A DNA stretch of 64,000 nucleotides from the IMG/VR virus record IMGVR_UViG_3300005066_000001; one strand, 5' to 3'. The DNA comes from a virus. Positions 11,653-61,543 of this stretch are shown one piece after another. Position numbers and translations under genes: made by a program. Numbering within the stretch: the stretch's first letter is position 1; every line of letters begins with the position of its first letter. Below the pieces are notes generated by a model that saw only the letters and a program-made list of their open reading frames with translations, was not told where the DNA came from and did no database searches.

Positions 11653-12786
11653 CTAATACGATTTATTATGATAGAATGCGGCTGTTGGTGCATTGAATCG
11701 CGGCATTGTTGGTGCTTTATGAATTTTCTTTGTTGCTAAAAACGAAAAGACTGAAGCACAGGCATCAGGCCAATCATCTTTTCTGTCTGCTGTAGATCTC
11801 TCTCCATCAAAACTTTCAAGTTCTTTATAGAAAGCTGCAAGTGTTGCTGGTTCAAAAGTGTCTTCTACAATAGAAACCAAACCATTTTGACAAGCAGAGC
11901 TGAACGCTTCAAATCGTTTAAGTTTAGATTTGTTGGAGGGGTTAGGGTCTTCTTTTACAATAAACCCCTCATTAGTGAACATCTTAGCCATCTCGTTAAA
12001 CGCAAATGCACCAGCTTGTCCTGGATCTTTAGGAAGAACCACAATAGTGTCTGAGCCATCGTGTTTGGCTTGTAACAACATCCACGTATCACGAACACCG
12101 GGACGTTTTCTAAACCTACCATTCTGTCTAGTCAATTCATCAAAAGTTTCTTGAATATAATCACCAACAATAATATAAGTATCTTGGTTTGTTTTTAACA
12201 TTTTGATACTTGCGGTATAGTCAGGATATCTATTCTTATCAGATGGTTCAGCAGAAGCTAAGTCCCATCCTCGTGCTTCTGTGCAATTCAAAGGTACTTT
12301 GTCCAGCTTATTTAACCAACTGCGTTGGAAATAATTAGAACCTTCTGGGCGAGCATACCAGTTACCGTCCAATAGTCTGGCGCGGTTAATTGGTGACTGA
12401 GCTTTCAGTGCAGACAAATACTTTGGGTTAGATTTTATTAGTGCTGGGTTATCGAAGATAGTCCCGCTGATAAAAGTAAATGACATAGGAGGAATATAAA
12501 TCCTTTCACCATCATTTTCTTGATAACAAATATCAGGGTACGCTTCTGCTAACTCTTCCTCTGTATTAGCAAAAATAGGTTTATCATCAACAATAACGAA
12601 GTACCTAATAACTCCGTCTTTACTCTGGTCTGGATAGCCTTCTGGATCCAAATACCACTCAACGAACGAAAGCACCCAACTGTCCGGTGATGGGTTACAA
12701 GTCCCCATACAGAAGCTATCGCACTCCGCTTCAGAACGGAGACGTCCTATAAGGTATAAAAATTGAGATTGTGAGAAATGTGTCAA
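11653..12786 (-). CDS. terL: terminase large subunit, C-terminal exon (ATPase motif III plus nuclease domain)
   Basis: Contains GTCNPSPDSWVLSFVEW, which resembles the T4 gp17 TTPNG...HFYDIW ATPase coupling motif. An RNase-H-like nuclease region follows. The frame is closed by TGA at 12793-12795, so the N-terminal part is encoded elsewhere (14053-14421). Confidence 0.7.
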   Translation of the reverse strand: MTHFSQSQFLYLIGRLRSEAECDSFCMGTCNPSPDSWVLSFVEWYLDPEGYPDQSKDGVIRYFVIVDDKPIFANTEEELAEAYPDICYQENDGERIYIPPMSFTFISGTIFDNPALIKSNPKYLSALKAQSPINRARLLDGNWYARPEGSNYFQRSWLNKLDKVPLNCTEARGWDLASAEPSDKNRYPDYTASIKMLKTNQDTYIIVGDYIQETFDELTRQNGRFRKRPGVRDTWMLLQAKHDGSDTIVVLPKDPGQAGAFAFNEMAKMFTNEGFIVKEDPNPSNKSKLKRFEAFSSACQNGLVSIVEDTFEPATLAAFYKELESFDGERSTADRKDDWPDACASVFSFLATKKIHKAPTMPRFNAPTAAFYHNKSY

Positions 12787-12820
12787 TTGTGTTCACAGAG
12801 GTTCGCAACACCTCTCCCGC

Positions 12821-12975
12821 ATCATTACATGCTGCTCTATATTACTATAGAAGTTCAGATCATATCATCACCTGTTATGGTGCTTTGCGCTTCGGAGTAC
12901 CATTGGCTTGTACCCTACTCTACTTGCTTCTTCATTTACAATTAAGTAAACTATGCTTTCGATGATCGTTGCTCT
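12821..12975. repeat. intron structural module, copy A (~150 nt; paralog at 13141-13268)
   Basis: Shared blocks CTATATTACTATAGAAGTT[CG]AGA[TC]CATATCATCA, GCGCTTCGG and [AG]TCGTTGCTCTT are seen in both copies. Confidence 0.6.
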
Positions 12976-12989
12976 TTCCTTATTTATGA

Positions 12990-13085
12990 TAAGGCTTAGA
13001 TCAGGATTGTCCTCAACTTAATGGTCGGAGTTTCCCTGAGTTCACAAAGTTTATTGAGCTCAACATTCTAAGCTCATCGAAACCC
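12990..13085. repeat. intron structural module X (paralog at 13955-14050)
   Basis: AGATCAGGATTG[TC]CCTCAA[CT]TTAATG[GA]T[CT]GG[AG]GT[TC]CCCTGA[GA]TTCAC is shared with 13955-14050. Confidence 0.55.
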
Positions 13086-13140
13086 ACAAAAGAATATTGC
13101 AGACCCTGCATCGATCTTCAATGTAGTTCGTTAAACCACA

Positions 13141-13268
13141 CCAGCAGCATTACCTGCATCTCTATATTACTATAGAAGTTGAGACCATATCATCATCCTG
13201 CAATAATTACAGGATGGATAGCGCTTCGGGATACTTACCCCTACTTCCTCTCGGAATGGTCGTTGCTC
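13141..13268. repeat. intron structural module, copy B
   Basis: Paralog of 12821-12975; lies directly downstream (on the minus strand) of the HNH ORF stop codon. Confidence 0.6.
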
Positions 13269-13931
13269 TTAATTAAATTTGTAATTTTTTGAAATTTCTG
13301 TGAAGTATATCCGGCGTTTTATACAAGAAATAGACCTTTTATTAGCATTGGTAATCTCTTCTATTTCTGCATAACTTCTACCTTCTTGAAGTAATTCACA
13401 GATATTGATCACTGTTTCTACGCTTATTCTCTGGTCCCTCTTTACTACAGAGAAGTCATATTCATCAGAAATATAATTATATGATTTTTTGTTTTTTATT
13501 TCAGAAACTGTGTATTTAGGAACACCAAACATGTTAGATATATCACTATTTCTAAATCCATCACAAATTTTAGAACAAATTGCGTGAACTTGTTCATCGG
13601 TCAGCAGTGCGTTGTTTCTTAACCCTGTCCTCTCTGCGTGAACACAATTTTCAGAAGGCGTTACCCACTCTAAGTTCTCTACAGTATTATTTAATTTATT
13701 TCCGTCTTTATGATTAACTTCTTTTTTATTCTCTGGATTTTCAATAAAAGCTGTAGCTACCAAGCGATGAACTGAAAATTTATGTTTTTTCCCGTTTTCA
13801 TAACACTCTATGTACTGGTATCCTGCTGTGTCTGAGAATGGTTTTAAAAATCTGTTAGATTTTAAACTAAATATTTTACCTTCCCGTGATACGCAATAGT
13901 TTGGCTGGTCAACAAAAATCATATTTTTCAT
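13269..13931 (-). CDS. HNH homing endonuclease (intron-encoded)
   Basis: 220-aa ORF with a canonical HNH core (HRLVATAFIENP...VNHKDGNKLNNTVENLEWVTPSENCVHA). C-terminal region resembles DNA-binding modules of intron endonucleases. Embedded in the terL intervening sequence. Confidence 0.85.
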   Translation of the reverse strand: MKNMIFVDQPNYCVSREGKIFSLKSNRFLKPFSDTAGYQYIECYENGKKHKFSVHRLVATAFIENPENKKEVNHKDGNKLNNTVENLEWVTPSENCVHAERTGLRNNALLTDEQVHAICSKICDGFRNSDISNMFGVPKYTVSEIKNKKSYNYISDEYDFSVVKRDQRISVETVINICELLQEGRSYAEIEEITNANKRSISCIKRRIYFTEISKNYKFN

Positions 13932-13954
13932 TACAAATCTCCTACTATTTTCGG

Positions 13955-14050
13955 AATAATATTAAGATCAGGATTGCCCTCAATTTAATGATTGGGTGTC
14001 CCCTGAATTCACTATCTTATCATTTACATGTTACCATGTAAGGCCACCAG
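13955..14050. repeat. intron structural module X' (5' part of the HNH-containing intron)
   Basis: Paralog of 12990-13085; lies immediately 3' of terL exon 1 on the minus strand. Confidence 0.55.
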
Positions 14051-14052
14051 AA

Positions 14053-14421
14053 TTAATGGTTGGCTTCTGCTGTATCTTCGTGCTCTAAGTGGGTGTATTT
14101 AAGGTTCCCACCACCTGTTCCTTCGAAAATAATCTCCATGTCTTTTTCACGGATTCTTGGATTAAGTGGTCTGAAAAGTTTCTTGCTTTCTGTAAACAAT
14201 CCGCCAGCACCTTTAAGGGGGCCAGTTGTTCTTCGAAACATTACACCTTCAAAATTAGGATCTTGATATGCGTGTTTTAATGCTTTTATTAAAAGAAGTC
14301 TCGACTTGCCGCTACCTGCGGCACCGCCGTATATCATTACATCTACTTTTGTATCAAAAGCTTTTCGTTGTTTTCCCTCTTGAGGGGCTAAGTTAACAAC
14401 ATTATTTTGTTTAGTTGCCAA
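14053..14421 (-). CDS. terL: terminase large subunit, N-terminal exon (Walker A ATPase)
   Basis: 122-aa ORF with Walker A (YGGAAGSGKS) directly downstream of the terS-like gene. The frame runs into a stop inside the insertion, as expected for exon 1 reading into an intron. Confidence 0.75.
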   Translation of the reverse strand: MATKQNNVVNLAPQEGKQRKAFDTKVDVMIYGGAAGSGKSRLLLIKALKHAYQDPNFEGVMFRRTTGPLKGAGGLFTESKKLFRPLNPRIREKDMEIIFEGTGGGNLKYTHLEHEDTAEANH

Positions 14422-17144: not shown

Positions 17145-17219
17145 TGGCACAGGTACAGCGATTTGAACGCTGACAATCTTTTTAGAAGAAAGATATGCTA
17201 TCCATTACATCATACCTGC
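17145..17219 (-). tRNA. tRNA-Arg (anticodon TCT)
   Basis: Manual cloverleaf, 75 nt: acceptor GCAGGTA/TACCTGT (G1-U wobble); D-loop with GG; anticodon arm TCTTT-CTTCTAA-AAAGA; T-arm CAGCG-TTCAAAT-CGCTG; discriminator G and an encoded CCA. Confidence 0.65.
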
Positions 17220-17228
17220 AAGTTAATT

Positions 17229-17303
17229 TGGTGGGCCTAGATGGAATCCAACCATCCTTGAACCAGTTATGAGCTGGCTGCATTCGCAGACTGCCATAGG
17301 CCC
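17229..17303 (-). tRNA. tRNA-Met-like (anticodon CAT), atypical D- and T-loops
   Basis: Manual fold, 75 nt: acceptor GGGCCTA/TAGGCCC plus A plus CCA; anticodon arm GCCAG-CTCATAA-CTGGT; T-arm GATGG-TTGGATT-CCATC. T-loop has G at the usual C56 position and the D-loop lacks GG. Could be an initiator/elongator Met or an Ile(lysidine) tRNA. Confidence 0.5.
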
Positions 17304-17325
17304 TGTAAATCTTTAAAATACTTAG

Positions 17326-17408
17326 TGTTGGATGTGAGACTCGAACTCACGATGAGGTTTCCCTGCTGGATTACAAAACCAGTCGTATCGCCACTAACGG
17401 AATCCAAC
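17326..17408 (-). tRNA. tRNA (83 nt, long variable arm; anticodon uncertain, UGU if the loop is canonical)
   Basis: Acceptor GTTGGAT/ATCCAAC; T-arm GTGAG-TTCGAGT-CTCAC; D-loop TAGTGGCGAT; variable hairpin AGG-GAAA-CCT; anticodon region CTGGT-TTTGTAA-TCCAG with a U-U mismatch at 31-39. No encoded CCA. Confidence 0.4.
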
Positions 17409-36133: not shown

Positions 36134-36571
36134 ATGAAATTGGAAATCGAACTTGTCCCAAAAACTGCGTGGTTTAATAATCTCCGCAGTTTCTTGACAA
36201 AAGAAGAATGGGATATTGTGCGGAAGAAGTGTTACAAAGAAGCAAACCACCGCTGCGAGATTTGCGGGAGTCAAGGAGATAATTGGCCTGTAGAGTGCCA
36301 CGAGATTTGGGAGTACACTAAAGCACGTAAAGTAAAACTTAAAGGGTTGATTGCACTGTGCCCCGATTGCCATGAAGTAAAACATATAGGGTTGGCACAA
36401 ATTCGTGGTAGATTCTACCCTGCATTAAATCACTTCATGAAAGTAAACAACGTATCAAAACAAGAGGCAATTAAATATGTTAACTCTTGTTTTTCTTTGT
36501 GGAATGAGAGAAACAAAGTTGATTGGAAATTAGATGTTTCATATTTAAAAGAGTACATGGAGAAGAATTGA
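36134..36571 (+). CDS. HNH nuclease
   Basis: CEICGSQGDNWPVECHEIWEY...CPDCHEVKHIG matches the C-x2-C...H...C-x2-C-H HNH zinc-finger nuclease signature. Confidence 0.55.
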   Translation: MKLEIELVPKTAWFNNLRSFLTKEEWDIVRKKCYKEANHRCEICGSQGDNWPVECHEIWEYTKARKVKLKGLIALCPDCHEVKHIGLAQIRGRFYPALNHFMKVNNVSKQEAIKYVNSCFSLWNERNKVDWKLDVSYLKEYMEKN

Positions 36572-37140
36572 GAAAACCAAGAAAGAAATCAGTAACAAAA
36601 AGAACAACGAGTAGGCGAAGAGTAATCTATAACTTTGTGTACGATAAAGACAAATGGATTAAAGGTTCAACTCAGATAAAGAAGCATCGTGAGATGCTTA
36701 TTGAAAATGCCTCTGAAAGCTCCTGTATGGCCTCTGGATTGCATTTCAGTAGTGAGGGGCTACAAGGGTACACCTTAGACCATTGTCACTCTACAGGGGT
36801 GATTAGGGGCGTTCTTAGAAGCGATATCAATATTTTTGCGGGACGTATTGAGAAATACTATAATAAGATTTTAGGTAAAACTGGATTATCTCTGATAGAA
36901 GTTCTTGAAGGACTATTAAATTACTTAAAATCATCAGAAGAAGATAGACAAACTGGAAATTATATGTTAGACTTCCGTATTGTTGATGCTGAACTAAAGC
37001 GAATAAGTCGGTGGAAGACAGAAACCATCCTCAATAAACTTAAAAATAAACTTGAACTTTTACCAGTAGAAGAGTATAATCGTCAACAAATAGTAGAAAT
37101 GTATATTAATCAGTTTGTCAAAGAGAAGGAGAATCAATGA
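36523..37140 (+). CDS. recombination endonuclease VII-like resolvase
   Basis: YTLDHCHSTGVIRGVLRSDINIFAGRIE matches the T4 endo VII motif LHLDHDH...VRGLLC. True start probably an internal ATG near 36694, because the tracked frame overlaps the previous gene. Confidence 0.55.
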   Translation: MEIRCFIFKRVHGEELRKPRKKSVTKRTTSRRRVIYNFVYDKDKWIKGSTQIKKHREMLIENASESSCMASGLHFSSEGLQGYTLDHCHSTGVIRGVLRSDINIFAGRIEKYYNKILGKTGLSLIEVLEGLLNYLKSSEEDRQTGNYMLDFRIVDAELKRISRWKTETILNKLKNKLELLPVEEYNRQQIVEMYINQFVKEKENQ

Positions 37141-46522: not shown

Positions 46523-48781
46523 TTGATTAAAAGTGTAATCAAACGTAATGGTGAAGTTGTTGAGTTCGACCCAAACAAACTGAATAAGTGGGCTGAGTGG
46601 GCCAGTGAATCTAAAGTATCTTGGTCAGAAATTGTAATGAGTGCAACTAAGAAACTGTCCGATATGTGCTCTACCAAAGATATCCACAAGGCGCTTATTG
46701 ACACCTGTCTTGAAAAGGCAACATACCAACATGCAGATGTTGCAGCACGACTCCTTGTTGGGGATATCTATAAAGAAGTGTTTGGTGATTTTGTAGAACC
46801 ACCCTCTCTTTTTGAGTTCTATACAAAAATGGTAGAATCAGAAAAGTGGATTGACATGGAGTACGTTGAAGAAGAACTTGACGAAATTGATTCTTTTGTT
46901 ATCCACAATAAAGATTTCGGATACCAATACTCAAGCCTTCGTCAAATGTGTGATAAATACATGCTTAAAAACAAGCATACTGGACAACTGTTTGAATCAC
47001 CTCAGTTTATGTATGTGGGTATTGCTCTGGCGGCTATGCAGAATCAACCACAAGAGCGGAGAGTTGAAGATGTAATCAAACTGTACACCTATCTGTCAGA
47101 TTTGAAGATTAATGTTCCAACACCAACTCTTTCTGGTATGAGAACTAAGTTTAAAGGTTATGCAAGTTGCTGTTTGTTTACTACGCACGATACAGCAGAG
47201 AGTATTGAAGTAGGTAGCCACATTGCCTATATGATGACTTGCGCATCAGCAGGGATTGGTGGTTACATGCATACTCGTTCAGTAAAAGACCCTGTTCGTG
47301 GTGGCGACATTGTACACTATGGTAAACTACCTTACCTTCGGTACTACGAAAGTGCTGTCAAATCTACAAAGCAAGCAGTACGTGGCGGTAGTGCAACAAT
47401 GCACATTAATATTCTAGATCCTGAAATTGAAGATTTGATTCGTCTAAAACATCCAACTACACCGACACAAAAACAGATTCGTGGGTTGGATTATAGTAAC
47501 AGCATGAACAAACTGTTTATTCAGAAAGTTGCTAAGAACGAGCAGTGGATGTTAATTAGTCCATACTACGCTCAAGATTTGTATGATAAGTTTTATAGTT
47601 CAGATTATGAAGGTTTTGTTGAACTGTATGACAAATACGACAAATCAGATATTAAAGAAAAGAAGTATGTCAATGCTCGTGAATTGGCAATTGATATTCA
47701 AAAGAACTGGCGTGAATCTGGTCGAACATACAAGACATTTATTGACGAGATTAATCGACATACTCCATTTAAAGAGCCAATCTACAGCTCAAATTTATGC
47801 CAAGAAATCACGCTACCTACAAAAGGATTTAAGAGTATTGTAGATTTGTATGGAACAGATGGTGATGCAGGAGAAGTAGCATTGTGTTTTATTGGTGCAA
47901 TTGTAGCAGGACGTGTTACACAAGAAGAGTACGAAGATGTTGCTTATTATACAACCTTACTAATCGACAACACTATTGACTTGATGGAATACCCATTCCC
48001 CCAGATGGAAGTAACAGCAAAAGCTCGCAGAAGTATTGGTGTTGGTATTGTTAACCTAGCAAACTATCTTGCATCACAGAATGCAGGTTATACAAGCAAT
48101 AAAGGTAAACGTCTTATTCACGAACTAGCAGAAATGCACAGCTACTATATGCACAAAGCTTCTCTTCGTCTTGCAAAAGAAAAGGGTAATGCAGAATGGA
48201 TTGGTAAAACTAAATATCCTAAAGGTTGGTTGCCTATTGACACATACAATAAAAATGTAGATGATGTTGTTGATAGTTCGTTGGTATTTGACTGGGAACA
48301 GTTACGACAAGAAATTATTGAACAAGGCGGGTTGCGCAATAGTGTCCTTGAGGCACACATGCCCGGAGAAAGTAGTTCTCTAGCATCAAACACAACTAAC
48401 GGTCTTTATCCAATTCGTAGTGAACTGATTATTAAATCTTCGGATATAAACAAAATTCCAGTGTTTGTACCAGATTATGATAATTTGATTACTCGATACA
48501 GTTACGAGAAGTGTTGGGATGTCCCATTTAAGGACTTGGTAGACATGTATGCAATTGTTCAGAAGTTCTGTGGGCAAGCTATTAGTGCTGACTTTTATTT
48601 CGATACCTCTAAATATCAAGATGGTAAGATCGGTACGAAGGAAGACTTGACGAACTTGCTATATATGTGTAAGATGGGACTCAAGACTCATTATTACTGC
48701 AATACAAAATCCAAATCCGATGAAGTTGAGCAACTGACTTCGCAAGAATCTGGTTGTGCGTCAGGTGGTTGCAGTTTGTAA
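46523..48781 (+). CDS. nrdA: ribonucleotide reductase class I alpha subunit
   Basis: 752 aa; N-terminal ATP-cone (VIKRNGEVVEFDPNKL); C-terminal Cys pair (GCASGGCSL); nrdB downstream. TTG start after GGAGGAATAA. Confidence 0.7.
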   Translation: MIKSVIKRNGEVVEFDPNKLNKWAEWASESKVSWSEIVMSATKKLSDMCSTKDIHKALIDTCLEKATYQHADVAARLLVGDIYKEVFGDFVEPPSLFEFYTKMVESEKWIDMEYVEEELDEIDSFVIHNKDFGYQYSSLRQMCDKYMLKNKHTGQLFESPQFMYVGIALAAMQNQPQERRVEDVIKLYTYLSDLKINVPTPTLSGMRTKFKGYASCCLFTTHDTAESIEVGSHIAYMMTCASAGIGGYMHTRSVKDPVRGGDIVHYGKLPYLRYYESAVKSTKQAVRGGSATMHINILDPEIEDLIRLKHPTTPTQKQIRGLDYSNSMNKLFIQKVAKNEQWMLISPYYAQDLYDKFYSSDYEGFVELYDKYDKSDIKEKKYVNARELAIDIQKNWRESGRTYKTFIDEINRHTPFKEPIYSSNLCQEITLPTKGFKSIVDLYGTDGDAGEVALCFIGAIVAGRVTQEEYEDVAYYTTLLIDNTIDLMEYPFPQMEVTAKARRSIGVGIVNLANYLASQNAGYTSNKGKRLIHELAEMHSYYMHKASLRLAKEKGNAEWIGKTKYPKGWLPIDTYNKNVDDVVDSSLVFDWEQLRQEIIEQGGLRNSVLEAHMPGESSSLASNTTNGLYPIRSELIIKSSDINKIPVFVPDYDNLITRYSYEKCWDVPFKDLVDMYAIVQKFCGQAISADFYFDTSKYQDGKIGTKEDLTNLLYMCKMGLKTHYYCNTKSKSDEVEQLTSQESGCASGGCSL

Positions 48782-48892: not shown

Positions 48893-49753
48893 GTGGCTGA
48901 AAATAAGAAGAAACAACAAAAAGCTGAAGATTTTATAGGTGAGACGTTTAATAATGGCAGATTAAGGGTTGTAGGAATTGCAGGTAAGGATAAATGGGGA
49001 ATTTCATTATTTAAAGTAACTTGTACTGAATGTTCTAAAGATCCTGAACTGTTTCCAGATGGTTATTTTGTTAGTACAAAAAGTAACCTGAAGAATGGGC
49101 GGAAACCCTGCGGTTGTTCTAAGTACGAATGGGAAGATTGGCAATATCTGATTCTTGCTCGTAGAGCAGGAGAAGAGAAAGGATTTGTTGTTCATGGTTT
49201 TGCAGAAGAGTTTCATGGGGCATATACAAAACTAAACCTAGAATGTTTAAAAGACAGTTATAAGTGGACTGCAAGTATTGATAATGTAATCAATAACGGC
49301 AGATGTTGTCCTAAGTGTTCTGGAAATGCCAGACCAACAGAACAAGAAGCCCTGCAAAAATGTATTGATATCTGCAAAGAAATGGATTACGATGCTGTTG
49401 GCTTTGTTGGTGGATATAAAAATAACCGTTCTCATTTTGAATACAATTGTAAGATTCACGGAAAACAGGGTGTCAGCTATCACAATTTTGTAAACAATGG
49501 GACACGTTGTGGTGGTTGTTGGAAAGATAGGCAAGTTGAATTACTAAGAGATAACGGAAACGGCAACGGATACTATCCCGAAAGAAAAGATGAAATTGAT
49601 TTTCTTTATGTCTTAGACTTCAATGGTAAATTCATCAAAGTTGGAAGATCTTTTATTGTTGACGATAGGATTAAGAAGTTAAGGTCTTTATCTAAAATTA
49701 AAAAGATCTATAAATTGAGGACCTTTTACAGCAACACATCAAGAGATTTATGA
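48893..49753 (+). CDS. Zn-ribbon/GIY-YIG-like homing-endonuclease-like protein, copy 1 (C-terminus frameshifted)
   Basis: Paralog of 60545-61543 (same N-terminus MxENKKKQQKAEDFIG, CxxC repeats, YVLDFNGKFIKVGRS GIY-YIG-like segment). Relative to copy 2, one extra T in a T-run near 49726 shifts the last ~45 codons into another frame (continues to 49893). Confidence 0.5.
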   Translation: MAENKKKQQKAEDFIGETFNNGRLRVVGIAGKDKWGISLFKVTCTECSKDPELFPDGYFVSTKSNLKNGRKPCGCSKYEWEDWQYLILARRAGEEKGFVVHGFAEEFHGAYTKLNLECLKDSYKWTASIDNVINNGRCCPKCSGNARPTEQEALQKCIDICKEMDYDAVGFVGGYKNNRSHFEYNCKIHGKQGVSYHNFVNNGTRCGGCWKDRQVELLRDNGNGNGYYPERKDEIDFLYVLDFNGKFIKVGRSFIVDDRIKKLRSLSKIKKIYKLRTFYSNTSRDL

Positions 49754-49921: not shown

Positions 49922-51007
49922 ATGGCAGTTTTTAATTATGAAAATACTCAACGACACGAAGGGCACTACCCTCTATTCCTTGGGCAGCAACCAGCACTTC
50001 ACGATAGCATCAACACAACATACCCACAGATCTTTAAACTTTACAAGAAACTGAAGTCTGTTGACTGGAGTGAAGATGAGGTTGACCTTCAACAATCCCG
50101 CTTCGATTTCGAGAATTGCCCAAAGAATCAATACGAAGTAATGGTTAAAACTCTGGCCTATCAGTGGGAGCTTGATAGCATTGCTTCTCGTTCTATTGCA
50201 CCGCTTCTTGCACCATTTGTATCAAATAGTGAATATTGGGCAGCAGCTTCTTATGTATCGCAAAATGAAGTGCTTCACAGTTTAACATATTCCGAAATTG
50301 GTCGACAGTGTTTCAAGAATCCAGAAGTATTGTTTGCTGAAGTAGAGAGAAATGAAGTTACTGAACGTGGCTATGATTTTGGTATCGTGTTCAAAGAACT
50401 TGAACAACTTGGTGCTAAGTATAATCTTGGTCTTGTAGATAAAAATGACCCAATCGTCAAAGAAACTATTGCAAAAACATTAGTAGCCCTGTATGCTCTT
50501 GAAGGTATTAGTTTCATGGCATCGTTTGCTTGCACATTTGCACTAGCACAACAAGATTTGTTTATCGGTGTTGCCAAATTAGTTCAGAAAATTATGATCG
50601 ATGAACAATATCATACCCAACTTGATAAAATTGTTATTGAGACCCTACAAAACGACCCTGAATGGAAGCAAACATTTAAAGATATTAAACCTTGGACAAA
50701 AGAATATCTTGACAAGGTTGTACAGCGAGAGCTAAACTGGAACGAATACTTGTTCTCAGAAGGGCGTAGTATTCTGGGCTTGAACAAGCAACTATTGGAT
50801 GAGTGGGTTGTTTGGTCTGCAACCCCATTGTACAAAGTGTTGAATGTTCATAATGACAATGTAGTTCCCGAATCCCACCCAATTCCTTGGTTGAATGACT
50901 GGATTGACATTGACTCCCATCAAGTAGCAGCACAAGAAGCTACTATTGTCAATTATGTTTTGAATGCAACTAAAGATGACCTTGGGGATGATGAATTAGA
51001 GTTTTAA
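49922..51007 (+). CDS. nrdB: ribonucleotide reductase class I beta subunit
   Basis: 361 aa, directly follows the nrdA region; ferritin-like di-iron helices; acidic C-terminal tail (DDLGDDELEF) typical of R2. Confidence 0.6.
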   Translation: MAVFNYENTQRHEGHYPLFLGQQPALHDSINTTYPQIFKLYKKLKSVDWSEDEVDLQQSRFDFENCPKNQYEVMVKTLAYQWELDSIASRSIAPLLAPFVSNSEYWAAASYVSQNEVLHSLTYSEIGRQCFKNPEVLFAEVERNEVTERGYDFGIVFKELEQLGAKYNLGLVDKNDPIVKETIAKTLVALYALEGISFMASFACTFALAQQDLFIGVAKLVQKIMIDEQYHTQLDKIVIETLQNDPEWKQTFKDIKPWTKEYLDKVVQRELNWNEYLFSEGRSILGLNKQLLDEWVVWSATPLYKVLNVHNDNVVPESHPIPWLNDWIDIDSHQVAAQEATIVNYVLNATKDDLGDDELEF

Positions 51008-54962: not shown

Positions 54963-55016
54963 AGAGTAGTGTTAAACACACAATTCCATTTTAATCAACA
55001 CCAAGGAGGTGTTATA

Positions 55017-55805
55017 GTGAGAGAAGATTATTGGTCTGACGCACACGAGCAAGATTCCAGTTTTCAACAACATAAAGAGGTGAATAAAAAGATGAAAGGA
55101 CGCAACAATACTCCTAACACTTTTAAAGCGAAAACAGATAGTAATAGGGACACAACACCTCTTCGTCCGATGAATGACCGTCAAGCAGAGTACATTGACG
55201 CTATTTACAACCATGCCGTGGTTATTGCCACTGGTGTTTGGGGGTCAAGTAAAACATACATCCCGTCTGTTATTGCTTGTGATATGTTGCTTGCCAAAAA
55301 GATTGACAAAATTGTAGTAGCTCGTCCCGCAGAAGGTAAGGCTAAATCTGTAGGGTTCTATAAAGGAACTAAGAACGAAAAACTCGAAGGTTGGGTGGCT
55401 CCAATTGCAGATGTATTTAAGAAGCGACTGGGTATCGGGCACTACGAAGCTTATGTTGAAAATGGGAAGATTGAACTACTCTCACTTGAACAAGTGAAGG
55501 GTCGTTCTTGGGACAACACCTTTGTAATTGTGGATGAAGCTGAAGATTTGGCCCCAGAGGTAGCTAAATCTCTTGTAGGACGGCAAGGTGTAAATTCTAT
55601 CACAGTGATCACTGGGGATATTGACCAAAAAGATCTTAAAAGTTATAGTGGACTAGAGCTGTTACTCGAAGTTTCAAAGTACGGTAACATTGATATGAGT
55701 ATTATTGATTTTGATAAATGGGAATACTGTGTACGTTCTCAAGAAGCAAAAGCTTGGGGTATGGCATTTGAGAAATATGAGCGCCGAAATGGTAGAGTAA
55801 AATAA
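55017..55805 (+). CDS. phoH: PhoH-like ATPase
   Basis: P-loop VVIATGVWGSSKTY and the DEAQN-like FVIVDEAEDL. Start taken as GTG at 55017, after CAAGGAGGTGTTATA, within the tracked frame 54969-55805. Confidence 0.55.
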   Translation: MREDYWSDAHEQDSSFQQHKEVNKKMKGRNNTPNTFKAKTDSNRDTTPLRPMNDRQAEYIDAIYNHAVVIATGVWGSSKTYIPSVIACDMLLAKKIDKIVVARPAEGKAKSVGFYKGTKNEKLEGWVAPIADVFKKRLGIGHYEAYVENGKIELLSLEQVKGRSWDNTFVIVDEAEDLAPEVAKSLVGRQGVNSITVITGDIDQKDLKSYSGLELLLEVSKYGNIDMSIIDFDKWEYCVRSQEAKAWGMAFEKYERRNGRVK

Positions 55806-55932: not shown

Positions 55933-56919
55933 TTGGAGGCGAAGTTGGATAATTTTATTAACACAAAACACGGTAAACTGACTGTTATAGCAATAACAGA
56001 TAAAGTAGACAAGTATAACAGAAAAATATATGAATTACAATGTGATTGTGGCAACACAACATTTAAAACCAAAAATGAAGTAACAAACAAAAGAGGGCCA
56101 AGGTCTTGCGGATGTATCCCAAGAAAACGTAAGACAAAAGACATTAGTGGTGAGAGGTTTACAAAACTAATAGCAGTAATGCCGACTGGAGAAAAATCAA
56201 AAAATGGGGATGCCTTATGGTACTGTGAGTGTGATTGTGGCAAAAGTACGATAACAACCATAGGAAGACTGAACTTTGGGCATACAAAATCTTGTGGTTG
56301 TTTGAAGAATGAGGTAATACCTTTTAAAAGTAATTATCACGGAATGAAAAACACGCCTGAGTATAATTCTTGGAGAAAGATGAAAGAACGGTGCTATGAT
56401 ATAAACAACTCTGATTATAAAAATTATGGAGCTGTCGGTATTACAATGCCGGAGGAGTGGAAAGATAATTTCCTTAGATTTTATCAAGATGTAGGTAAAT
56501 GCCCATGTAAGGGTTATACGGTGGACAGAGTAGATTGCAACCTAAGTTACAGTAAGGAAAATTGTAGATGGGCCAGCCCGCACATTCAAGCAAGGAACAG
56601 GTTAAAAACAAAGACTTCTAAAACATCAAAGTATAAAGGGGTTAGCTATGATAAAGCAGCAGATAAGTGGTCAGCAAGATTTACCATCAGTTCCGGGGGA
56701 AATCTCTATGGAGGACGGATCTTTAGATATGAAACAGAGGAAGAGGCAGCATCTGCTTATGACCTAGCTACAATGTTGGTTTTTGAAGGATTTCCAACAA
56801 GTATTTATAATTTGAACAATTCTGGGTTTGATGTAGATGAAATTAACAAAGATATTTATTTCTTTAAAGTGCACCTCCCAAAACTAAAAGAGATTGCGAA
56901 TTTAGTGTATAAAGATTAA
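55933..56919 (+). CDS. HNH homing endonuclease with AP2 DNA-binding domain (free-standing)
   Basis: N-terminal repeated CDCG/CGC zinc-ribbon units; HNH-type core GYTVDRVDCNLSYSKENCRWAS; AP2 domain YKGVSYDKAADKWSARFT...YLGG-like. Confidence 0.65.
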   Translation: MEAKLDNFINTKHGKLTVIAITDKVDKYNRKIYELQCDCGNTTFKTKNEVTNKRGPRSCGCIPRKRKTKDISGERFTKLIAVMPTGEKSKNGDALWYCECDCGKSTITTIGRLNFGHTKSCGCLKNEVIPFKSNYHGMKNTPEYNSWRKMKERCYDINNSDYKNYGAVGITMPEEWKDNFLRFYQDVGKCPCKGYTVDRVDCNLSYSKENCRWASPHIQARNRLKTKTSKTSKYKGVSYDKAADKWSARFTISSGGNLYGGRIFRYETEEEAASAYDLATMLVFEGFPTSIYNLNNSGFDVDEINKDIYFFKVHLPKLKEIANLVYKD

Positions 56920-60544: not shown

Positions 60545-61543
60545 ATGACTGAAAATAAAAAGAAACAACAAAAAGCTGAAGATTTCATAGGTTGGAAAAG
60601 TAAAGATGGAAAACTAGAAGTTATTGGTATTATTGAGAAATCGAAGCATACCACTTTTAAAGTTACCTGTACGGAATGTTCCAAAGATCCTGAATTATTC
60701 CATGATGGATATTTTGTTAGTGTCAAAAGTAGTTTGGTTAAAGAAATCAAACCTTGTGGTTGTGGGAAAAATGTAAGATGGAGGGACTTTCAATATTTAA
60801 TATTAGCCCGTAGAGCATCAAAAGACAGGTTTATTGTTCATGGTTTTGTTGAAGGATTTAAAAATCAAAACACCAAACTAAACCTTGAATGTTTGAAAGA
60901 TGGGCATAAGTGGACTGCAAGTATTAATGATATTATTAATAGTGGCAAAGGTTGTTCAAAGTGTGCTGGTGTATATAGGCCAACAGAACAAGAAGCATTG
61001 CAAAAATGTATTGATATTTGTAAAGAAATGAGCTATGATGTTGTTGGTTTTGTTGGTGGATATAAAAACAACACTTCTCGTTTTGAGTACATCTGCAAAA
61101 TTCATGGAAAACAGAATGTTAGATATGGTAATTTTGTAAACAAAGGAACACGTTGTCGGGGTTGTGCTAAAGATGAAACCATTAGAAGATTAAGGGAAGA
61201 TGGAAATGGTAATGGATACTATCCCGAAAGAAAAGATGAAACTGATTTCTTGTACATCTTGAACTTCAATGGTAAATTCATTAAAGTTGGAAGGTCTTTT
61301 CTTGTTGATAAAAGAGTTGATGCTTTAAAGTCTATATCTAAAATCAAAAAGATTCACAAACTCAGAATATTCACAGCAACACATCAAGAGATTTATGATT
61401 TTGAACAAGAACTACATAACGAGTTACGAGAAAGAAACTTCCAACATTATGTAGATTGGTCAACAGAGTGTTTTGAAAATGATTCACTGTTCGTTCTCAA
61501 TAAATTTCTGGATAGTTGTGGTCTAGAAGAAATAAAACAATGA
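60545..61543 (+). CDS. Zn-ribbon/GIY-YIG-like homing-endonuclease-like protein, copy 2 (intact)
   Basis: 332 aa. CxxC pairs CTECSKD, CGCGKN, CSKCAG, CRGC; then YILNFNGKFIKVGRSFLVDKRVDALKS, a GIY-YIG-like segment. Paralog of 48893-49753. Confidence 0.5.
   Translation: MTENKKKQQKAEDFIGWKSKDGKLEVIGIIEKSKHTTFKVTCTECSKDPELFHDGYFVSVKSSLVKEIKPCGCGKNVRWRDFQYLILARRASKDRFIVHGFVEGFKNQNTKLNLECLKDGHKWTASINDIINSGKGCSKCAGVYRPTEQEALQKCIDICKEMSYDVVGFVGGYKNNTSRFEYICKIHGKQNVRYGNFVNKGTRCRGCAKDETIRRLREDGNGNGYYPERKDETDFLYILNFNGKFIKVGRSFLVDKRVDALKSISKIKKIHKLRIFTATHQEIYDFEQELHNELRERNFQHYVDWSTECFENDSLFVLNKFLDSCGLEEIKQ

What the first reader, a model, noticed from the sequence alone, without database searches (positions are those of the whole stretch)
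12787..14052. Insertion is built from two tandem copies of the same RNA modules: twin introns with a mini-exon, or an internally duplicated intron
On the minus strand the order is X'(14050-13955), HNH ORF, B(13268-13141), 47-nt spacer, X(13085-12990), A(12975-12821). X and X' are about 80% identical, and A and B share long identical blocks. A 5'-half/3'-half pattern repeated twice suggests two adjacent introns, one with and one without the endonuclease gene, separated by a tiny exon (13090-13136). The alternative is a duplicated intron core. Either is unusual.
Basis: seen in the sequence. Interest (0 to 1): 0.65.

Follow-up and report, generated by a model that had tools for sequence, protein, structure and literature searches.

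The report
Two tandem introns splitting phage terminase
The large-terminase gene of this Aeromonas phage is interrupted by two related self-splicing group I introns only 39 bases apart, with the enzyme's Walker B motif on the tiny exon between them; this layout is already known from other phages, so it is a well-documented new example rather than a new kind of element.

Summary
The repeated modules are real. They are two complete, related group I introns in terL on the minus strand.

- **Intron 1:** 14055..13109, 947 nt, with an I-HmuI-like HNH endonuclease gene in its P6 loop.
- **Intron 2:** 13069..12784, 286 nt, no ORF.
- **Mini-exon:** It encodes QGLQYSFVGFDEL, the Walker B motif.

Joining the three exons gives a 511-aa TerL that aligns without gaps to uninterrupted homologues. 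Both ribozyme cores are intact, and ten base pairs differ between them by compensatory changes. Each intron has its own guide sequence that pairs with its own 5' exon through a U·G pair.

Related Plateaulakevirus phages carry this intron family at four sites within 39 nt. The sites occur singly or in pairs, and the endonuclease gene sits in either intron. In the window, the two introns and the mini-exon are phiA047-like, while the surrounding terL is 2L372D/TS9-like. The pair therefore appears to have moved as one unit.

A single duplicated intron is rejected. Precedents exist in Twort orf142, Bastillevirinae terL and ICP1 TMP, so this is a new member of a known kind. No RNA data are available.

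The parts
14056..14421 (-). terL exon 1 (TTG start; 122 codons, contains Walker A GGAAGSGKS; ends ...GCC AAC CAT)
   Evidence: ORF list. Pfam Terminase_6N on the spliced product. Alignment to uninterrupted homologues.
13109..14055 (-). Group I intron 1 (site a, 947 nt). It starts with an in-frame UAA and ends with a terminal G at 13109. IGS GUGG 14047-14044; P2 14041-14024; P3 14016-14010/13223-13217; P4-P5 14006-13968; P6 13967-13961/13273-13267; P7 13261-13257/13187-13183; P7.1 13256-13245; P7.2 13241-13228; P8 13216-13194; P9 13177-13160; P9.1 13157-13144; P9.2 13141-13121.
   Evidence: Rfam hit on the 3' half, 45.7 bits. The ORF-less orthologue in phiA047 (92% identical) scores 89.2 bits. 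All helices are paired. The MFE fold of the ORF-deleted RNA reproduces them, z = -3.8. P1 hairpin with U·G. Coordinates.
13269..13931 (-). Intron-encoded HNH homing endonuclease gene (220 aa, I-HmuI-like) in the terminal loop of P6. It has its own Shine-Dalgarno sequence (AGGAG, 13942-13938), and its stop codon lies inside the 3' strand of P6.
   Evidence: Pfam HNH_3 E 4.2e-11. PDB 1u3e (I-HmuI) E 6.7e-16. PHROG 59 HNH endonuclease E 2.8e-53. Coordinates.
13070..13108 (-). terL mini-exon, 39 nt, phase 0 at both ends, encoding QGLQYSFVGFDEL (Walker B)
   Evidence: Translation. It matches the same segment of uninterrupted homologues, with Q123, G124, Q126, S128, D133, E134 and L135 invariant. 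It is contiguous with exon 1 or exon 3 in relatives that lack one of the introns.
12784..13069 (-). Group I intron 2 (site c, 286 nt, no ORF, no P2). IGS GAGCUC 13061-13056; P3 13049-13043/12889-12883; P4-P5 13039-13001; P6 13000-12973; P7 12967-12963/12862-12858; P7.1/7.2 region 12962-12890; P8 12882-12869; P9 12852-12835; P9.1 12832-12819; P9.2 12815-12797; terminal G at 12784.
   Evidence: Rfam RF00028 61.5 bits against a gathering score of 50, E 8.7e-15. Pairing and covariation. P1 hairpin. Coordinates.
11653..12783 (-). terL exon 3 (starts ACA CAT TTC = THF...; 376 codons plus stop). The 377-aa ORF listed mechanically (and annotated in relatives) starts at a spurious TTG at 12786, inside intron 2.
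   Evidence: ORF list. Alignment to homologues. Pfam Terminase_6N/6C.

Best explanation
terL of this Plateaulakevirus-like Aeromonas phage is interrupted by two independent members of one group I intron family with subgroup IA-type architecture. They sit 39 nt apart, on either side of the Walker B codons. Shown by sequence: each intron has a complete P1-P9.2 core, its own internal guide sequence that pairs with its own 5' exon through a U·G wobble, and a terminal G. The three exons join in frame to a canonical 511-aa TerL. Inferred: on the late pre-mRNA the two ribozymes fold separately, each carries out guanosine-initiated self-splicing, and the mini-exon is retained. The I-HmuI-like HNH enzyme encoded in P6 of intron 1 is inferred to nick or cut intron-free terL alleles of co-infecting relatives near site a. 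Because site c is only 39 bp away, repair would copy both introns and the mini-exon together, so the ORF-less intron 2 would hitch-hike. The window's exon mosaic is a footprint of such a transfer. The differences between the two introns in P3, P7 and the guide sequence would also limit mis-pairing between the tandem copies, and hence exon skipping. This last point is inference only.
For: - **Rfam:** intron 2 scores 61.5 bits and the 3' half of intron 1 scores 45.7 bits. ORF-less orthologues and paralogues in relatives score 85-109 bits.
- **Covariation across 8 introns:** 91.8% of cells are paired against 35-43% for slid controls, and 27 of 54 pairs show compensatory changes.
- **Window intron 1 versus intron 2:** 33 pairs are identical, 10 are compensatory and 2 are broken in one copy. 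Examples are P3 GAUAGUG/CGCUAUC versus CUUUGUG/CGCAAAG, and P7 GACCA/UGGUC versus GAUCA/UGAUC.
- **Splice sites:** P1 hairpins have U·G at both 5' splice sites, and a G ends both introns.
- **Spliced product:** TerL aligns gap-free with 11 uninterrupted homologues across both junctions and matches Terminase_6N at E 2e-27.
- **Independence of the two introns:** site a occurs alone in L031; site c occurs with site b in TS9; sites b and d occur alone in 2L372D and phiA009; the a+c pair with the endonuclease gene in the other intron occurs in phiA047, PhAER-3 and metagenome contig L033.
- **Exon mosaic:** window exons are 97-98% identical to 2L372D/TS9 up to about nt 353 and TS9/2L372D-like again from about nt 412 (about 85-100% per 60-nt bin). 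Nt 354-412, including the mini-exon, is phiA047-like (1 of 39 differences against 7-8 of 39). The flanking 60-nt bins are only 67% identical to phiA047, whereas the introns are 92% and 96% identical.
- **Endonuclease:** similar to I-HmuI.
Against: - No RNA or biochemical data exist, so splicing, its order and endonuclease activity are all inferred.
- In the window, intron 1 stays below the Rfam gathering score because the 683-nt P6 insert splits it.
- The default Rfam scan of the whole window reported neither intron.
- The MFE of intron 2 is no better than shuffled sequence (z = -0.42), although the predicted helices match the model.
- Exon-guide pairing in P1 of intron 1 is short: 4 bp, plus 2 bp within the intron.
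- The mosaic could also come from ordinary recombination between co-infecting phages rather than endonuclease-driven homing.
- The donor lineage is not exactly phiA047 (two TS9-like bases at nt 359-360).
Confidence: 0.92

Rival explanations
1. The whole 1272-nt insertion is one intron whose core was internally duplicated. It is removed in a single event and no mini-exon is retained.
For: The two halves are about 75-77% identical and lie in the same order. Exon skipping by tandem group I introns has been seen in vitro in Twort orf142 and SIOphi terL. Removing the 39 nt would keep the reading frame.
Against: A single excision would delete QGLQYSFVGFDEL, which contains the invariant Walker B residues D133, E134 and L135. 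Each intron has its own P1 guide, its own terminal G and its own closed P3/P7. Hybrid P3 between the two copies pairs at only 4 of 7 positions, and the guide sequences are not interchangeable. Each intron occurs alone in relatives. Viable isolates phiA047 and PhAER-3 share the layout.
Confidence: 0.02
2. This concerns origin, not architecture. Intron 1 (site a) arose as a local copy of the site-c intron, or the reverse. The copy moved 39 nt within terL by guide-sequence-directed reverse splicing or illegitimate homing and then retargeted its guide sequence.
For: The closest non-orthologous relatives of the site-a introns are the site-c introns (75-78%, against 67-73% for the others). ORF-less a and c copies share nearly the same P6 hairpin, GCCUUAU...AUAAGG. 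Across the family the guide sequence tracks a 4-6-nt exon word: GCCC/GGGU at site b and also at site c of a terL only 40% identical (L006/L016/L018), and GAGC/GCUU at sites c and d.
Against: Site-c introns are equally close to the site-d intron and to introns in distant phages and at the Walker A site (76-79%), so a and c are not sister copies. The identity values have no resolving power at this depth, no phylogeny was built, and P1 similarity may be convergent.
Confidence: 0.2
3. The tandem layout is used for regulated alternative splicing. Exon skipping would give an in-frame TerL that lacks Walker B and modulates or poisons packaging.
For: The mini-exon is a multiple of 3 nt. There are published precedents for exon skipping between tandem group I introns.
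Against: The window offers no evidence for it. P3, P7 and the guide sequences have diverged in a way that disfavours cross-pairing. Relatives manage with one intron or none.
Confidence: 0.07
4. The introns are decayed remnants and terL is a pseudogene, or is expressed as separate polypeptides.
For: GenBank relatives annotate the pieces as separate CDSs.
Against: Every core helix is intact in both introns. The exons are under strong conservation. terL is essential, and isolates with the same layout are viable phages. The 13-aa mini-exon has no start codon of its own.
Confidence: 0.01

Closest known systems
Staphylococcus phage Twort orf142, introns 2 and 3 (Landthaler & Shub 1999, as summarised in PMC10136302)
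   Same: Two highly similar subgroup IA-type group I introns lie in tandem in one phage structural or packaging gene, separated by a very short exon (23 nt there, 39 nt here).
   Different: The host gene is different (tail tube versus terL) and so is the phage lineage (Gram-positive Herelleviridae versus Aeromonas Plateaulakevirus). Exon skipping was shown experimentally in Twort and is untested here. Here one intron carries an HNH endonuclease gene. Whether the Twort pair does is not stated in what I read.
Vibrio phage ICP1 tape-measure gene with three introns (Barth, Dunham & Seed 2023, PMC10448857)
   Same: It is a multi-intron phage gene with HNH_3-type endonuclease genes. Which intron carries the endonuclease gene differs between isolates while the splice junctions stay fixed, and the endonucleases are only about 30% identical. 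Here the figures are 28-38%. The same paper notes that Plateaulakeviruses are rich in homing endonuclease genes.
   Different: The gene is different. In ICP1 splicing was verified by RNA-seq and RT-PCR. The ICP1 report does not describe several alternative insertion sites within a few tens of nucleotides.
Bastillevirinae terL and DNA polymerase introns (PMC11878797)
   Same: Some terL genes there are split by two or three group I introns. Small internal exons occur, and an internal terL exon is skipped in vitro in phage SIOphi.
   Different: These are Bacillus phages with a different terL family and different endonuclease families in terL (VSR-like). No sequence relationship to the present introns was tested.
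Bacillus phage SPO1 DNA polymerase intron encoding I-HmuI (PDB 1u3e)
   Same: A phage group I intron carries an HNH nicking-type homing endonuclease. The window enzyme matches I-HmuI at E 6.7e-16 over residues 10-103.
   Different: That is a single intron in a different gene. The C-terminal DNA-binding part of the window protein does not match I-HmuI at sequence level. Nicking activity is untested.
Coxiella burnetii 23S rRNA tandem group I introns (Hicks et al. 2011, as cited in PMC10136302)
   Same: Two group I introns are separated by a 34-nt exon.
   Different: It is an rRNA gene in a bacterium, and the two introns belong to different subgroups, so they are not paralogues.

Membership tests
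Group I intron (Rfam RF00028) | Covariance-model score at or above the curated gathering score (50 bits) | tested here: met
   Intron 2 scores 61.5 bits. In the window, intron 1 scores only 45.7 bits on its 3' half because the ORF splits it. Its ORF-less orthologue in phiA047, 92% identical, scores 89.2 bits.
Group I intron (Rfam RF00028) | P1 helix between the 5' exon and the internal guide sequence, with a U·G wobble at the 5' splice site | tested here: met
   Intron 1: CCAU|UA pairs with UGGUGG. Intron 2: GAGCUU|AG pairs with UUGAGCUC. In both, the last exon U pairs with a G.
Group I intron (Rfam RF00028) | Conserved core P3-P8 including the P3/P7 pseudoknot, supported by covariation | tested here: met
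   91.8% of cells are paired, against 35-43% for slid controls. 27 of 54 pairs show compensatory changes, and P3 and P7 are 96-100% paired.
Group I intron (Rfam RF00028) | Terminal guanosine at the 3' splice site | tested here: met
   G at 13109 and G at 12784. These are the only positions that both end in G and restore the TerL reading frame.
Group I intron (Rfam RF00028) | Guanosine-dependent self-splicing | not testable with these tools
   This needs in vitro transcription and splicing, or cDNA.
Subgroup IA group I introns (T4 td / Twort type) | Extra hairpins P7.1 and P7.2 between the 5' strand of P7 and the 3' strand of P3 | tested here: met
   In intron 1, UUCC-GAGA-GGAA (13256-13245) and GGGGU-AAGU-AUCCC (13241-13228) appear in the unconstrained MFE fold. 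Intron 2 has a 73-nt region at the same place. A formal IA1/IA2/IA3 assignment was not made.
I-HmuI-like HNH homing endonucleases | HNH catalytic domain with sequence similarity to I-HmuI | tested here: met
   Pfam HNH_3 E 4.2e-11. PDB 1u3e E 6.7e-16.
I-HmuI-like HNH homing endonucleases | Encoded in a peripheral loop of a self-splicing intron, with its own translation signals | tested here: met
   The ORF lies in the terminal loop of P6, has AGGAG upstream of the ATG, and its stop codon lies in the 3' strand of P6.
I-HmuI-like HNH homing endonucleases | Site-specific nicking or cleavage of the intron-free allele | not testable with these tools
   This needs a cleavage assay on intron-free terL DNA.
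Twintron (intron nested inside another intron) | One intron interrupts the sequence of the other and must be removed first | tested here: not met
   The two ribozymes lie side by side, each is complete, and a coding exon separates them.
Tandem paralogous group I introns flanking a mini-exon (Twort orf142 I2/I3 type) | Two related, complete introns separated by an exon of a few tens of nucleotides that is part of the functional product | tested here: met
   The introns are 75-77% identical. The 39-nt exon encodes conserved Walker B residues.
Tandem paralogous group I introns flanking a mini-exon (Twort orf142 I2/I3 type) | Exon skipping as an alternative splicing product | not testable with these tools
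   This needs RT-PCR or RNA-seq.
Terminase large subunit, Terminase_6N/6C (PF03237/PF17289) | Full-length match of the spliced product, with Walker A and Walker B | tested here: met
   Terminase_6N E 2e-27 over residues 30-293, and Terminase_6C E 8.6e-6. The product is 60-68% identical to uninterrupted 500-520-aa homologues over at least 96% of its length.

The most novel reading that the evidence does not exclude
The 39-nt Walker B coding segment of Plateaulakevirus terL may be a natural arena of intron retargeting. One intron family occupies at least four positions there (a, b, c, d) and also the Walker A codons. The guide sequence of each lineage tracks a 4-6-nt exon word wherever that word occurs: GGGU at site b, and at site c of a distant terL; GCUU at sites c and d. 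This would be comparative evidence for guide-sequence-directed ectopic insertion (reverse splicing) of phage group I introns. The resulting intron pairs would then be mobilised as single cassettes by whichever intron carries an endonuclease.
Probability: 0.15. Interest if true: 0.65.

Novelty: new member of a known kind. Interest (0 to 1): 0.4.

Why it matters
- **Annotation.** In every deposited relative, terL is annotated as two or three separate CDSs ('putative terminase large subunit', 'HNH homing endonuclease', 'terminase', or 'hypothetical protein'). The 13-codon Walker B exon is not annotated at all, and exon 3 is given a spurious TTG start. The correct product is a 511-aa protein joined from three pieces.
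- **A tractable system.** This genus has cultivable Aeromonas phages that differ only in which of four closely spaced sites are occupied and in which intron carries the endonuclease gene. The window also carries a visible short co-conversion footprint. Mixed-infection crosses could therefore address hitch-hiking of ORF-less introns, competition between introns for neighbouring sites, endonuclease-gene turnover and exon skipping.
- **Limit.** The finding does not reveal a new kind of element.

Tried and rejected
- **Default Rfam scan of the 64-kb window:** it reported only tRNAs. Both introns were missed by the speed filters and appeared only in 'evalue' mode or in a local scan.
- **Thermodynamic folding:** the result for intron 2 is not significant (z = -0.42), so I did not use MFE as evidence for that intron.
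- **Custom covariance model:** not built. The roughly 300-column alignment would exceed the calibration limit, and the Rfam scores for ORF-less orthologues plus the pair counts already answered the question.
- **TerL-based scan of viral contigs:** it returned mostly the same four isolates.
- **Metagenome pattern scan:** it gave one relevant contig (L033) and one chance match (L034).
- **Contigs L029 and L032:** they end at the intron and gave no information on the architecture.
- **Literature searches:** searches for introns in Plateaulakevirus or Aeromonas-phage terL found no description of these introns.
- **Recent local duplication:** rejected as the explanation for the similarity of the two introns. 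They are no closer to each other than intron 2 is to introns at site d, at Walker A, or in a terL only 40% identical.
- **Twintron, intein and pseudogene readings:** rejected (see rival explanations and membership tests).
Full report
**1. The observation**

On the minus strand, the region 14055..12784 interrupts a large-terminase gene.
- The upstream ORF (14421..14053) encodes the N-terminus with Walker A and stops at ...EANH*.
- The downstream ORF (12786..11653) continues with THFSQSQFLYLIGRLRS....

The repeat search pairs 12792-12870 with 13117-13195 (79 nt, 80%) and 12989-13045 with 13956-14012 (57 nt, 77%), plus shorter blocks. A 23-nt core motif occurs exactly twice in the 64-kb window, against none in shuffles. 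With the ORF cut out, the upstream copy aligns end to end with the downstream copy at 75-77% identity.

**2. What the modules are**

A local Rfam scan calls 13079..12835 a full-length group I intron: 61.5 bits against a gathering score of 50, E 8.7e-15. It also matches 13397..13160 at 45.7 bits, with a correct 3' half and a 5' half mis-aligned into the ORF. The default scan of the whole window missed both introns. The permissive scan found only the ORF-less one.

The ORF 13931..13269 is an HNH_3 endonuclease. It resembles I-HmuI (PDB 1u3e, E 6.7e-16) and PHROG 59. It sits in the terminal loop of P6, has its own AGGAG, and its stop codon lies in the 3' strand of P6.

**3. Exact boundaries and the mini-exon**

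Reading the sequence gives these boundaries:
- Exon 1 ends ...GCC AAC CAT at 14056.
- Intron 1 is UAAUUCUGGUGG...GAUCGAUG (14055..13109, 947 nt).
- The next 39 nt (13108..13070) read CAG GGT CTG CAA TAT TCT TTT GTG GGT TTC GAT GAG CTT, which translates to QGLQYSFVGFDEL.
- Intron 2 is AGAAUGUUGAGCUC...CACAAUUG (13069..12784, 286 nt).
- Exon 3 starts ACA CAT TTC at 12783.

The joined 511-aa protein matches Terminase_6N (E 2e-27) and Terminase_6C. It is 60-68% identical over at least 96% of its length to many uninterrupted proteins of 500-520 aa. In an alignment with 11 of them there is no gap at either junction.

**4. Both ribozymes are complete and separate**

I aligned eight ORF-deleted introns of this family: the two from the window and six from relatives. 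I then wrote the helices P2, P3, P4, P5/P5a, P7 (pseudoknot), P8, P9, P9.1 and P9.2 onto the alignment.
- 91.8% of cells form standard pairs, against 35-43% when the partners are slid.
- 27 of 54 pairs show changes on both sides.
- No shuffle out of 500 reaches the observed covariation score.

Comparing the two window introns over 47 comparable pairs, 33 are identical, 2 differ on one side, 10 are compensatory and 2 are broken in one copy. Examples are P3 GAUAGUG/CGCUAUC versus CUUUGUG/CGCAAAG and P7 GACCA/UGGUC versus GAUCA/UGAUC.

Each intron has its own P1 hairpin in which the last exon U pairs with a G of the guide sequence: CCAU|UA with UGGUGG, and GAGCUU|AG with UUGAGCUC. Each ends in G.

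The unconstrained MFE fold of ORF-deleted intron 1 reproduces P2, P3, P4, P5, P6, P7.1, P7.2, P8, P9, P9.1 and P9.2 (z = -3.8). The fold of intron 2 shows the same helices but is not more stable than shuffles (z = -0.42). P7.1 and P7.2 place the family in the IA type. Intron 2 lacks P2.

Cross-pairing between the copies is poor. Hybrid P3 pairs at 4 of 7 positions and the guide sequences do not fit each other's exons. By analogy with engineered tandem Tetrahymena introns (PMC10136302), this should favour exon inclusion. That is inference.

**5. Relatives show four insertion sites and mobile endonuclease genes**

The window is a Plateaulakevirus-like Aeromonas phage. The terL exons are 85-95% identical to deposited genomes, and no record covers at least 80% of the terL query region. 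I call the sites a (H|Q), b (inside the Leu codon of QG-L-Q), d (inside the Phe codon of GF|DE) and c (DEL|T). Reading the loci gives this occupancy:

| Phage or contig | Sites occupied | Endonuclease gene |
|---|---|---|
| Window | a + c | in a |
| phiA047, PhAER-3, metagenome contig L033 | a + c | in c |
| L031 | a alone, plus a Walker A intron | n/a |
| TS9/DL | b + c (32-nt mini-exon) | in c |
| 2L372D, 2L372X, 4L372D, 4L372XY, L008 | b alone | n/a |
| phiA009/phiA019 | d alone | n/a |
| L030 | Walker A + d | n/a |
| L026 (TerL 52% identical) | b | n/a |
| L006/L016/L018 (TerL 40% identical) | c | n/a |
| L019 | Walker A | n/a |

- **Rfam support.** The ORF-less copies score 85-109 bits in Rfam.
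- **Guide sequences.** Each guide sequence matches its own exon: a GUGG/CCAU, b GCCC/GGGU, c GAGCUC/GAGCUU, d GAGCC/GGCUU.
- **Endonucleases.** The three enzymes (window a, phiA047 c, TS9 c) are all in P6 and are only 28-38% identical. The best match of the window enzyme in the phage collection is 44%.
- **Identity between introns.** Introns at different sites are 67-79% identical. Site a versus site c gives 75-78%, which is no closer than c versus d, or c versus introns in distant phages. The two window introns are therefore family members at two sites, not a fresh tandem duplication.

**6. Footprint of transfer as a unit**

I compared the spliced terL sequences in 60-nt bins.
- The window is 97-98% identical to 2L372D/TS9 through nt 360. 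It drops to 85% in the bin that contains both junctions and is TS9/2L372D-like again beyond it (about 85-100% per bin).
- Against phiA047 the pattern is reversed: 67% in the bin before the junctions, 95% in the junction bin, and 67% in the bin after.
- At base resolution the phiA047-like tract runs from about nt 354 (12 nt before site a) to less than 10 nt past site c. The mini-exon differs from phiA047 at 1 of 39 positions, and from TS9/2L372D at 7-8 of 39.
- The introns themselves are 92% (a) and 96% (c) identical to those of phiA047.

The simplest reading is that intron a, the mini-exon and intron c entered a 2L372D/TS9-like terL together, with very short co-conversion tracts, as expected for homing. 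Ordinary recombination is not excluded. Because the endonuclease gene sits in a different intron in the two lineages, endonuclease-gene gain and loss must be faster than divergence of the ribozymes.

**7. Mechanism**

- **Shown:** the anatomy, the reading frame, base pairing and covariation, site polymorphism and the exon mosaic.
- **Inferred from established group I and HNH biology:** each intron self-splices independently and the mini-exon is retained. The HNH enzyme nicks or cuts intron-free alleles near site a in mixed infections, and repair copies both introns. The in-frame UAA at the start of intron 1 terminates translation of unspliced RNA.

**8. Comparison with what is known**

- Tandem, highly similar IA-type introns around a 23-nt exon, with exon skipping, are known from Twort orf142.
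- A 34-nt exon between two introns is known from Coxiella 23S rRNA (both as cited in PMC10136302).
- Bastillevirinae terL genes with two or three introns, and a skipped internal terL exon in vitro, are described in PMC11878797.
- ICP1 TMP has three introns whose endonuclease-gene occupancy varies between isolates, with endonucleases about 30% identical. The same paper notes that Plateaulakeviruses are rich in homing endonuclease genes (PMC10448857).

I found no paper that describes the terL introns of this genus.

**Verdict:** This is a new member of a known kind. Its added value is the four-site hotspot and the cassette-transfer footprint.

Noticed in passing
window 1-64000 (introns at 12784-14055): The default Rfam 'gathering' scan of the whole window reported no group I intron, although intron 2 scores 61.5 bits, above the 50-bit gathering score. 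It appeared only with permissive filters or in a short sub-window. Intron calls from the default scan of long windows are therefore not reliable negatives.
   Followed up: yes
L030:2700-2980; L031:1-142; L019 (minus-oriented match region); L024:3028-4001: Relatives carry further group I introns inside the Walker A codons of terL (YGGA|AGSGKS in L030, GGAG|SGKS in L019). The one in L030/L031 looks like a different intron lineage. The window's Walker A is uninterrupted.
   Followed up: partly
proteins P0018 (656 aa, Vibrio phage PWH3a-P1) and P0008 (829 aa): Longer TerL homologues have in-frame insertions of about 146 and 325 aa exactly between GGSAG and SGKS of Walker A. These are probably inteins at the same motif that hosts introns in other members.
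   Followed up: partly
L006, L016, L018: A terL only 40% identical has an intron at site c (DEG|TQF). Its guide sequence GCCC pairs with the exon word GGGU. This is the same guide/word pair used by the site-b introns of TS9/2L372D, and the P1-P2 region is similar to theirs. This hints that the guide sequence directs site choice.
   Followed up: partly
window 13957-13932 and L002 (TS9) upstream of its intron ORF: The leader CCGAAAA(A)UAGUAGGAGAUU upstream of the endonuclease start codon is nearly identical in the window's intron 1 and in TS9's site-c intron, although the two proteins are only 38% identical. It may be a conserved translation or regulatory element of the endonuclease cassette.
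   Followed up: no
window 48893-49753 (+) and 60545-61543 (+): There are two free-standing genes with CapR/DUF4379 (and T5orf172) domains that look like homing endonuclease genes. One lies between nrdA (46523-48781) and nrdB (49922-51007). This agrees with the reported enrichment of T5orf172 endonuclease genes in Plateaulakeviruses.
   Followed up: partly
window 55933-56919 (+) and 36523-37140 (+): An ORF with an AP2 domain (below the Pfam cut-off, possibly an endonuclease-associated DNA-binding protein) lies next to phoH (54969-55805). There is also an Endonuclease VII-domain ORF.
   Followed up: no
window 17148-17408 (-): A cluster of three tRNA genes lies on the minus strand at 17148-17219, 17232-17303 and 17326-17408. 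The third has a long variable arm.
   Followed up: no
L029 and L032 (Logan contigs): Two metagenome-assembled relatives end within or just upstream of exon 3 of terL. Assemblies may break at these repeated introns.
   Followed up: no
phage records DQ832317/NC_011041 (Escherichia phage V5) and relatives: HNH endonucleases about 40% identical to the window enzyme lie under or next to 'terminase large subunit' annotations in rV5-like coliphages. This suggests similar terL introns there.
   Followed up: no
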